Positions 53,009 to 53,420 of a stretch of DNA of 64,000 nucleotides are shown one piece after another (within the stretch, counting starts at the first letter, position 1; each line of letters opens with the position of its first letter). Location: assembly GCF_003334335.1 (NCBI RefSeq), contig NZ_QOWQ01000005.1; one strand, given 5' to 3'. The translations under genes were made by a program, and so were the position numbers. The notes beneath the pieces are model-generated. The model searched no databases. It had not been told where the DNA came from and was given only the letters and a program-made list of their open reading frames with translations. The DNA is from Escherichia coli (GTDB lineage: Bacteria; Pseudomonadota; Gammaproteobacteria; Enterobacterales; Enterobacteriaceae).

Positions 53009-53228
53009 TACATAATCCTTCATTTATTTTAATTACAGTGATCCCTGTGAATATTACATCTGCTATACCGATTAATTCGCCAGATATATATGCAAGCACC
53101 ATCATTTACTAAAACAAGTAAATAAACGAGAGATGACCTTTGCAAAAGGCAAAATTAAGATATAGCAAACAAATAGATCACATTGAATCTAATCGGTTTG
53201 GCTCTGGTGATGGCTACAGAAGGGCAAA

Positions 53229-53303
53229 TCAAGGGCGGTGATCGACAATTTTGTTGTCAATATTGAACCATTTTGAGGTCACACATATATGTAAGATATT
53301 CAT
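53229..53303 (-). CDS. tnaC: tna operon leader peptide (24 aa, MNILHICVTSKWFNIDNKIVDHRP)
   Basis: Translated by hand from the minus strand: ATG at 53303, Trp codon 12 (TGG), terminal Pro24-TGA stop at 53229-53231. Absent from the ORF track because it is under 60 aa. Confidence 0.95.
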   Translation of the reverse strand: MNILHICVTSKWFNIDNKIVDHRP

Positions 53304-53420
53304 AATGCACTTATCCTCGCAAGACACGAGGCTACATTATTACACTCAGAGTTTTTGTCTATTCTGAAATTGTTTAAATGTGAATCGAATCACAATCGTT
53401 CGGGGAGCAATATTAAATGC
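53304..53420 (-). promoter_or_regulatory. tna promoter region (catabolite-sensitive; CAP site expected)
   Basis: A/T-rich region upstream of tnaC; assigned by position, individual sites not resolved. Confidence 0.55.

What the first reader, a model, noticed from the sequence alone, without database searches (positions are those of the whole stretch)
53009..53420. tnaC leader peptide with the tryptophan-sensing stalling residues intact
A 24-codon ORF sits 220 bp upstream of tnaA, with Trp at codon 12 and Pro24 immediately before a UGA stop. The long spacer between tnaC and tnaA is where Rho-dependent termination operates. The ORF is invisible to a 60-aa ORF filter and was recovered by reading the minus strand by hand.
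Basis: partly seen in the sequence, partly recalled or inferred. Interest (0 to 1): 0.4.

Follow-up and report, generated by a model that had tools for sequence, protein, structure and literature searches.

The report
The known E. coli tnaC leader

Summary
On the minus strand, 53303..53229 encodes MNILHICVTSKWFNIDNKIVDHRP followed by TGA. It lies 220 nt upstream of an intact tnaA (53008..51593, 471 aa), which is followed by tnaB.

The whole 567-bp mnmE-tnaA intergenic region is identical to E. coli K-12 MG1655. The peptide is identical to the TnaC chain in PDB entry 6I0Y. It passes NCBI's tnaC equivalog model (44.3 bits, cut-off 23.55). RefSeq annotates it as tnaC in every E. coli genome I sampled. 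Six natural alleles differ at six sense-codon sites, and all six changes are synonymous.

A C-rich, relatively G-poor tract (53245..53206, 16 C and 6 G) straddles the stop codon. A boxA-like CGCCCTTGA overlaps the stop. A perfect CRP site (53394..53379) lies upstream. The spacer contains no terminator-like hairpin, no Rfam match and no unusual folding.

It is already known, and interest is low.

Side notes:
- The spacer holds the published Spot42 pairing site (53203..53190).
- About one third of complete E. coli genomes carry TAA rather than TGA as the tnaC stop. This window has TGA.

The parts
53379..53394 (-). CRP (CAP) binding site, a perfect palindrome TGTGA-N6-TCACA, upstream of the tna promoter
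   Evidence: It is the only match in the 64-kb window, with 0.04 expected by chance. None of its 16 positions varies among 7 E. coli alleles. Catabolite repression of tna is stated in PMC8429421 and PMC5748587.
53336..53341 (-). Probable -10 hexamer AATAAT, preceded by TG at 53344..53343. The aligned hexamer is TATACT in the divergent alleles. The inferred transcription start is near 53327.
   Evidence: Read from the sequence and the alignment. The consensus scan found no full sigma-70 match on this strand, as expected for an activator-dependent promoter. The start near 53327 rests on my recollection of a 319-nt leader and was not tested.
53314..53318 (-). Shine-Dalgarno GAGGA, 10 nt upstream of the tnaC ATG
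   Evidence: Read from the sequence. The 5' UTR has 1 variable site in 26 positions among the alleles.
53229..53303 (-). tnaC: 24 codons plus TGA, encoding MNILHICVTSKWFNIDNKIVDHRP
   Evidence: Translation. RefSeq annotation as tnaC, WP_001364348.1. TIGR02616 at 44.3 bits against a cut-off of 23.55. Identical to PDB 6i0y_7 and to 4uy8_7 over residues 5-24. Only synonymous variation among alleles.
53229..53237 (-). boxA-like CGCCCTTGA overlapping Arg23, Pro24 and the stop codon
   Evidence: It is the best match in the leader to CGCTCTTTA, with 2 mismatches, which is not significant alone. A role for a tna boxA is the subject of Konan and Yanofsky 2000. I could see only that paper's title, in the reference lists returned.
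53190..53245 (-). C-rich, relatively G-poor tract, the candidate rut (Rho loading) site. It starts in the last codons of tnaC and extends about 40 nt into the spacer.
   Evidence: The best 40-nt window, 53245..53206, has 16 C and 6 G, at the 98.8th percentile of all windows on both strands of the 64 kb. The best 78-nt window is 53267..53190, with 23 C and 11 G. Among the alleles the only variable site between 53224 and 53178 is none, and the only ones in 53228..53174 are 53225, 53177 and 53175. [quoted passage not shown]
53190..53203 (-). Spot42 sRNA pairing site AGCCAAACCGAUUA, at the 3' edge of the C-rich tract
   Evidence: The 15-nt Spot42 tract TAATCGGATTTGGCT, taken from K-12 spf, pairs here at -18.6 kcal/mol. 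None of 1000 shuffles did as well. [quoted passage not shown]
53009..53228 (-). 220-nt tnaC-tnaA spacer. It is U-rich, shows no notable structure, and is the region in which Rho-dependent termination is reported to occur.
   Evidence: Composition. No terminator-like hairpin. The 321-nt leader folds no better than shuffles, z = -0.53. No Rfam match at E <= 1.
51593..53008 (-). tnaA, tryptophanase, 471 aa, intact
   Evidence: Translation. TIGR02617 at 1010 bits against a cut-off of 825.8. There is one synonymous difference from K-12, at 52871.
50255..51502 (-). tnaB, low-affinity tryptophan permease, 415 aa, intact
   Evidence: NF007235 at 925 bits against a cut-off of 497. Same gene order as the RefSeq annotation.

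Best explanation
The region is the promoter and leader of the E. coli tnaCAB (tryptophanase) operon, in its K-12 allele. The steps below say which are shown here and which come from the literature.

1. CRP-cAMP bound at 53394..53379 activates transcription, which starts near 53327 on the minus strand. The site is shown; the start is inferred.
2. Ribosomes translate the 24-codon tnaC (shown to be a conserved coding ORF).
3. At low tryptophan, release factor 2 frees TnaC at the UGA stop and the ribosome leaves. The C-rich tract that begins at the end of tnaC is then exposed, Rho loads on it, and transcription terminates within the 220-nt spacer before tnaA (literature).
4. At high tryptophan, one free L-Trp binds in the exit tunnel between TnaC Trp12/Asp16 and 23S rRNA. 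Hydrolysis of TnaC-tRNA(Pro) by RF2 is blocked with Pro24 in the P site and UGA in the A site.
5. The stalled ribosome then covers the boxA-like element and the 5' part of the C-rich tract. Rho cannot load, and tnaA and tnaB are transcribed (literature; the geometry is consistent with the coordinates found here).
6. [quoted passage not shown]
For: Identity:
- The peptide is MNILHICVTSKWFNIDNKIVDHRP*.
- The 567-bp intergenic region is identical to K-12 MG1655.
- The 412-bp query matches in 5405 of 5426 complete E. coli genomes, always chromosomal and annotated tnaC.
- Gene order is mnmE-tnaC-tnaA-tnaB-mdtL, as in RefSeq.
- The NCBIfam equivalog models for TnaC, TnaA and TnaB are all passed.
- The peptide is identical to the TnaC chains in ribosome structures 6I0Y and 4UY8.

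Coding constraint:
- All 6 variable sense sites are synonymous.

Regulatory anatomy:
- A unique perfect CRP palindrome.
- A C-rich tract at the stop codon.
- A boxA-like 9-mer.
- No hairpin terminator, no Rfam family and no excess structure.

Mechanism from papers:
- Stalling at UGA with Pro24 in the P site, the rut site immediately downstream, and the critical residues Trp12, Asp16, Ile19 and Pro24 (PMC8429421; PMC10941005; PMC3299997; review PMC12360218).
- Spot42 pairing (PMC5748587).
Against: Nothing in the sequence argues against it. The limits are these:
- Rho dependence, stalling and Trp sensing were not and cannot be tested here.
- The boxA-like match is not significant on sequence alone.
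- The C-rich tract is modest (40% C, 15% G over 40 nt) and short.
- The transcription start and the -10 element are inferred.
- The primary paper on boxA and rut (Konan and Yanofsky 2000, PMC94583) could not be read.
Confidence: 0.97

Rival explanations
1. The 24-codon ORF is a chance open frame in an AT-rich intergenic region and is not translated.
For: Short ORFs are abundant: 98 ORFs of at least 20 aa lie in 7 kb. This one is not even listed on its own.
Against: It is identical to the annotated and structurally studied TnaC. Natural alleles show only synonymous variation at 6 of 6 variable sense sites, and the stop changes only to another stop. A Shine-Dalgarno GAGGA lies 10 nt upstream.
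Confidence: 0.005
2. The leader works like trpL and other amino-acid biosynthetic attenuators: ribosome position on the leader ORF selects between alternative RNA hairpins, one of which is an intrinsic terminator.
For: It is a short leader ORF with a Trp codon upstream of a tryptophan-related operon.
Against: There is no terminator-like hairpin with a U-run anywhere in 53009..53228 on the transcript strand. The two sites found lie inside mnmE. The leader's folding energy is ordinary, z = -0.53. There is no Rfam leader family match. There is a single Trp codon rather than a run. The operon is catabolic and induced by Trp, not repressed. Published work assigns termination to Rho.
Confidence: 0.01
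3. A cis-acting RNA element in the 220-nt spacer (riboswitch or T-box-like), rather than the peptide, senses tryptophan.
For: The spacer is long and partly conserved. The first 55 nt have only 3 variable sites.
Against: There is no Rfam match at E <= 1 and no excess structure. The conservation of the first 55 nt is accounted for by the rut tract and the Spot42 site. Peptide-level constraint is direct. Missense changes in TnaC abolish induction (PMC10941005).
Confidence: 0.005
4. The leader is intact, but the operon is not functional or not regulated in this particular strain because of a defect elsewhere.
For: A few E. coli genomes lack most of the region (H12, 15% coverage). One has foreign sequence just upstream of the CRP site (H11).
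Against: In this window tnaA (471 aa) and tnaB (415 aa) are full length and pass the equivalog cut-offs. The promoter and leader are identical to K-12. The only difference in the 1001 bases compared is one synonymous base in tnaA.
Confidence: 0.01

Closest known systems
tnaC (b3707) and the tnaCAB leader of Escherichia coli K-12 MG1655
   Same: Everything: the 567-bp intergenic region, including promoter, tnaC, stop codon and spacer, is identical base for base. The flanking genes and their order are the same.
   Different: Nothing within the feature. There is one synonymous difference in tnaA codon 46 (window 52871), so the source is a close relative of MG1655 but does not carry its exact sequence.
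The TAA-stop allele of tnaC, found in about one third of complete E. coli genomes (for example strain 2011C-4315, L004)
   Same: The TnaC peptide, CRP site, Shine-Dalgarno sequence, 220-nt spacer length and Spot42 site are the same.
   Different: The stop codon is TAA instead of TGA. The G five bases downstream is A. The -10 hexamer is TATACT instead of AATAAT. Overall divergence over 412 bp is about 6%. UAA can be read by RF1 as well as RF2, whereas TnaC is reported to inhibit RF2 preferentially (the title of a 2019 JBC paper, seen in the reference list returned).
SpeFL, the ornithine-sensing leader peptide of the speF operon in E. coli and Salmonella
   Same: The logic is the same: a uORF-encoded arrest peptide captures a free amino acid in the exit tunnel, blocks release at the stop codon, and thereby masks a Rho loading site (review PMC12360218; PMC11890864).
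   Different: The peptide is unrelated, the ligand is ornithine and the release factor is RF1. It shares a mechanism, not family membership.
trpL, the leader peptide of the trp biosynthetic operon (hairpin attenuation)
   Same: It is a short leader ORF coupling translation to transcription termination in response to tryptophan supply.
   Different: trpL senses charged tRNA(Trp) through tandem Trp codons and uses alternative hairpins with an intrinsic terminator (textbook knowledge). Here there is one Trp codon, no terminator hairpin, free Trp as ligand, and Rho as terminator.

Membership tests
TnaC tryptophanase leader peptide (NCBIfam TIGR02616) | Sequence match to the curated family model above its cut-off | tested here: met
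   44.3 bits against a cut-off of 23.55, E = 1.1e-11. Residues 3-24 align to profile positions 1-22 of 22.
TnaC tryptophanase leader peptide (NCBIfam TIGR02616) | The critical residues Trp12, Asp16, Ile19 and Pro24 are present (listed as critical in PMC8429421 and PMC10941005) | tested here: met
   In MNILHICVTSKWFNIDNKIVDHRP, W is residue 12, D is 16, I is 19 and P is 24 (literature).
TnaC tryptophanase leader peptide (NCBIfam TIGR02616) | Fixed spacing between Trp12 and the C-terminal Pro. Single-residue insertions or deletions between them abolish induction (PMC3299997). | tested here: met
   There are 11 residues between W12 and P24, as in K-12, and the peptide is identical to PDB 6i0y_7.
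TnaC tryptophanase leader peptide (NCBIfam TIGR02616) | The Pro codon is followed directly by a stop codon read by RF2 (UGA in K-12) | tested here: met
   CCT TGA at 53234..53229. Among E. coli genomes TGA is the commoner of two alleles, 3642 against 1755 with TAA.
tnaCAB operon leader (uORF-controlled Rho-dependent attenuator) | The leader ORF lies upstream of tnaA and tnaB on the same strand, separated from tnaA by a long untranslated spacer | tested here: met
   tnaC is 53303..53229, the spacer is 220 nt, tnaA is 53008..51593 and tnaB is 51502..50255, all on the minus strand.
tnaCAB operon leader (uORF-controlled Rho-dependent attenuator) | A C-rich, G-poor rut tract lies immediately adjacent to the tnaC stop codon | tested here: met
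   53245..53206 has 16 C and 6 G, at the 98.8th percentile of 40-nt windows in the 64 kb. This is a composition test only. Rho binding was not tested.
tnaCAB operon leader (uORF-controlled Rho-dependent attenuator) | A boxA-like element lies at the end of tnaC | tested here: inconclusive
   CGCCCTTGA at 53237..53229 has 2 mismatches to CGCTCTTTA. It is present and identical to K-12, but I calculate about 0.4 such matches by chance per leader. The primary paper was not readable.
tnaCAB operon leader (uORF-controlled Rho-dependent attenuator) | No intrinsic terminator or alternative-hairpin attenuator in the spacer | tested here: met
   No terminator-like site in 53009..53228. Fold z = -0.53. 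No Rfam match.
tnaCAB operon leader (uORF-controlled Rho-dependent attenuator) | A catabolite-sensitive promoter with a CRP site | tested here: met
   TGTGATTCGATTCACA at 53394..53379 is the only match in the window, with 0.04 expected, and is invariant among the alleles.
tnaCAB operon leader (uORF-controlled Rho-dependent attenuator) | Tryptophan-dependent ribosome stalling at the stop codon and Rho-dependent termination in the spacer | not testable with these tools
   Taken from published work on the identical K-12 sequence.

The most novel reading that the evidence does not exclude
The Spot42 pairing site (53203..53190) is not merely downstream of the attenuator. It forms the 3' edge of the C-rich Rho loading tract: the best 78-nt C>G window ends exactly at 53190. 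Spot42-Hfq could therefore repress tnaAB by changing Rho loading or termination in the leader, rather than (or as well as) by destabilising the mRNA as proposed.

In addition, the natural TGA/TAA polymorphism of the tnaC stop codon could set different tryptophan induction thresholds in different E. coli lineages. This window carries the RF2-only TGA allele.
Probability: 0.1. Interest if true: 0.3.

Novelty: already known. Interest (0 to 1): 0.05.

Why it matters
It matters little as a discovery. tnaC has been studied since the 1980s and has high-resolution ribosome structures.

Its value is as a positive control. A 24-codon regulatory ORF that a 60-aa filter cannot see was correctly recovered by reading raw sequence, with its regulatory context. 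It confirms that the source strain should make indole in a tryptophan-inducible, catabolite-repressed manner.

The side observation on the natural stop-codon polymorphism (TGA in about two thirds of complete E. coli genomes, TAA in about one third) may interest people who use tnaC as a biosensor or who study release-factor specificity.

Tried and rejected
- Rfam at permissive threshold over 52500..53900 found nothing. No curated RNA family describes this leader, and no riboswitch-like element is present.
- Folding the 321-nt leader gave z = -0.53, so a structured-RNA sensor was rejected.
- The terminator scan found only two weak sites, both inside the 3' end of mnmE, and none in the spacer. 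A trp-type attenuator was rejected.
- The promoter consensus scan found no sigma-70 match on the transcript strand. The -10 element was therefore read by eye from the alignment and is marked as inferred.
- A full-length Spot42 against spacer duplex prediction gave a meaningless, loop-ridden structure no better than shuffles. It was repeated with the 15-nt tract only.
- Konan and Yanofsky 2000 (PMC94583), Turnbough 2019 (PMC6710462) and the 2019 JBC paper on RF2 preference (PMC6916493) are not held. The exact published limits of boxA and rut, and the transcription start, could therefore not be checked against the papers.
- A literature search for the leader length and transcription start returned nothing relevant.
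- I did not run the large protein-database or genome-collection searches for TnaC from other genera. The exact identity to annotated, structurally solved TnaC and the family-model match had already settled membership, so the cost was not justified.

Full report
**1. The observation.** The minus strand of 52800..53700 contains ATG at 53303, 24 sense codons, and TGA at 53231..53229. The translation is MNILHICVTSKWFNIDNKIVDHRP*. Trp is codon 12, and Pro24 (CCT) is followed directly by TGA. In the mechanical ORF list tnaC appears only as a 32-aa GTG-started frame, 53229..53327. tnaA appears as 476 aa from an in-frame ATG at 53023, while RefSeq uses the 24-aa and 471-aa forms.

**2. Identity.** The 412-bp stretch matches 5405 of 5426 complete E. 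coli genomes. Every match is chromosomal and annotated "tnaC: tryptophanase leader peptide", and 1456 genomes are at least 99% identical.
- The local gene order is yidC, mnmE, tnaC, tnaA, tnaB, mdtL.
- The 567-bp mnmE-tnaA intergenic region is identical to K-12 MG1655.
- In the 1001 bases compared, the only difference is a synonymous third-position change in tnaA codon 46, at window 52871.
- The peptide passes NCBIfam TIGR02616 (44.3 bits, cut-off 23.55). TnaA passes TIGR02617 (1010 bits against 825.8) and TnaB passes NF007235 (925 bits against 497).
- The peptide is identical to the TnaC chain of PDB 6I0Y, and to 4UY8 over residues 5-24.

**3. Is the ORF under selection?** I aligned the window with six other E. 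coli alleles spanning 100% to 93.9% identity. Within tnaC, seven positions vary. Six are third-codon positions and all six are synonymous. The seventh changes the stop from TGA to TAA. Only 18% of possible single-base changes in the ORF would be synonymous, so the peptide sequence is constrained even though the surrounding DNA varies by up to 6%. The CRP site shows no variation in 16 positions. The stretch between the CRP site and the transcription start is the most variable segment, at 18%.

**4. Regulatory anatomy.**
- **Promoter.** TGTGATTCGATTCACA at 53394..53379 is a perfect CRP palindrome. It is the only one in 64 kb, with 0.04 expected. The likely -10 hexamer is AATAAT at 53341..53336, preceded by TG, and reads TATACT in the divergent alleles. 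The consensus scan found no full sigma-70 promoter on this strand, as expected for a CRP-dependent promoter. From memory the leader is 319 nt, which would put the start at 53327. This is inferred, not tested.
- **Rut candidate.** C exceeds G only in a short stretch that straddles the stop codon. The window 53245..53206 has 16 C and 6 G, at the 98.8th percentile of all 40-nt windows in the 64 kb. The best 78-nt window is 53267..53190. The spacer as a whole has C 15.9% and G 17.7% and is U-rich.
- **boxA-like element.** CGCCCTTGA at 53237..53229 overlaps Arg23, Pro24 and the stop, with two mismatches to CGCTCTTTA. I calculate about 0.4 such matches by chance in a leader of this length, so the sequence alone proves nothing. 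Its standing rests on published mutational work that I could see only as a title, because the paper is not held.
- **No RNA-structure mechanism.** There is no terminator-like hairpin in the spacer, no Rfam match at E <= 1, and a leader folding energy no better than shuffles, z = -0.53.

**5. Mechanism.** The papers I could read describe the mechanism for this exact sequence.
- At low Trp the ribosome leaves the UGA stop. The rut site immediately downstream is exposed, and Rho terminates at paused polymerase before tnaA.
[quoted passage not shown] The stalled ribosome blocks Rho's access (PMC8429421; review PMC12360218).
- Trp12, Asp16, Ile19 and Pro24 are the critical residues, and their spacing matters (PMC3299997).
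- A single L-Trp is wedged between Trp12 and the A752:U2609 pair of 23S rRNA, and RF2 binds but cannot accommodate its GGQ loop.

The coordinates found here fit this account. A ribosome with CCT (53234..53232) in the P site would cover the boxA-like element and roughly the first ten bases of the spacer, which is the 5' part of the C-rich tract. That last point is my inference from ordinary ribosome footprint sizes. Stalling and Rho dependence themselves cannot be tested with these tools.

**6. [quoted passage not shown] I took spf from K-12 and extracted the tract, TAATCGGATTTGGCT. It pairs with window 53204..53189 at -18.6 kcal/mol, and none of 1000 shuffles did as well. The site lies in the block 53224..53178, which is invariant among the alleles, and it coincides with the 3' end of the C>G tract.

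**7. Population note.** I designed two 53-nt queries so that every 28-mer seed spans a variant position. They separate two alleles at the stop codon: TGA...G in 3642 genomes and TAA...A in 1755 of 5426. The window has the TGA (K-12) allele. UGA is read only by RF2, whereas UAA is read by both release factors. A 2019 JBC paper, seen only as a title, reports that TnaC preferentially inhibits RF2. Whether the natural polymorphism changes induction is untested.

**8. Comparison and verdict.** The feature is not merely like tnaC. It is the K-12 tnaC leader, base for base. All membership features that can be tested on sequence are met. The boxA-like element is inconclusive on statistics alone, and the functional features come from the literature. 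Three rival readings are each contradicted by direct results: a chance ORF, a trp-type hairpin attenuator and a riboswitch. Novelty is "already known" and interest is low.

Noticed in passing
window 53229-53231, compared with L004/L005 (strains 2011C-4315 and AR_0374): The tnaC stop codon is polymorphic in E. coli. The TGA...G allele is in 3642 complete genomes and the TAA...A allele in 1755. The window has TGA. UAA can also be read by RF1, which could alter Trp-dependent stalling.
   Followed up: partly
window 53190-53203 (-): The published Spot42 sRNA pairing site sits at the 3' edge of the C-rich candidate rut tract. It pairs at -18.6 kcal/mol, matched by none of 1000 shuffles, and lies in a block that is invariant among 7 alleles.
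   Followed up: yes
window 53503-53536 (-): A strong hairpin lies just after the mnmE stop codon (GAAGCCGCAU...AUGCGGCUUC, -26.9 kcal/mol, z = -5.8) and has no U-run. It could be the mnmE terminator or insulator ahead of the tna promoter, or a REP-like element.
   Followed up: partly
window 53330-53378 (-): The stretch between the CRP site and the transcription start is the most variable part of the region among E. coli alleles (9 of 49 positions). The -10 hexamer is AATAAT with an upstream TG in the K-12 type, and TATACT without TG in the other alleles.
   Followed up: partly
window 53266-53303 (-): The first 12 codons of tnaC show no variation at all among 7 alleles, not even synonymous. All six synonymous changes fall in codons 13-22. 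The sample is small, so this could be chance, or a constraint on translation initiation or RNA.
   Followed up: no
L006 1-300 (strain 47258); hit H12 (strain 300081): One genome has unrelated sequence directly upstream of the CRP site, possibly an insertion or rearrangement. Another retains only the first 62 bases of the query, which suggests a deletion of the tna region.
   Followed up: no
E. coli genome search: At least one complete E. coli genome holds 7 copies of the tnaC leader region, of the TAA type. This suggests an amplification.
   Followed up: no
window 53009-53023 (-): An in-frame ATG lies five codons upstream of the annotated tnaA start (MKDYV-MENF...), so mechanical ORF calling gives 476 aa rather than 471.
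   Followed up: partly
window 58519-58599 (-) and 26297-26454 (-): Rfam gathering-level matches to AsdA (antisense RNA of dnaA mRNA, 101.9 bits) and to the sRNA STnc410 (188.3 bits). The window also carries dnaA, dnaN and recF (57997-61590, + strand) and mnmG (16105-17994), so by comparison with K-12 gene order oriC should lie near 15-16 kb.
   Followed up: no
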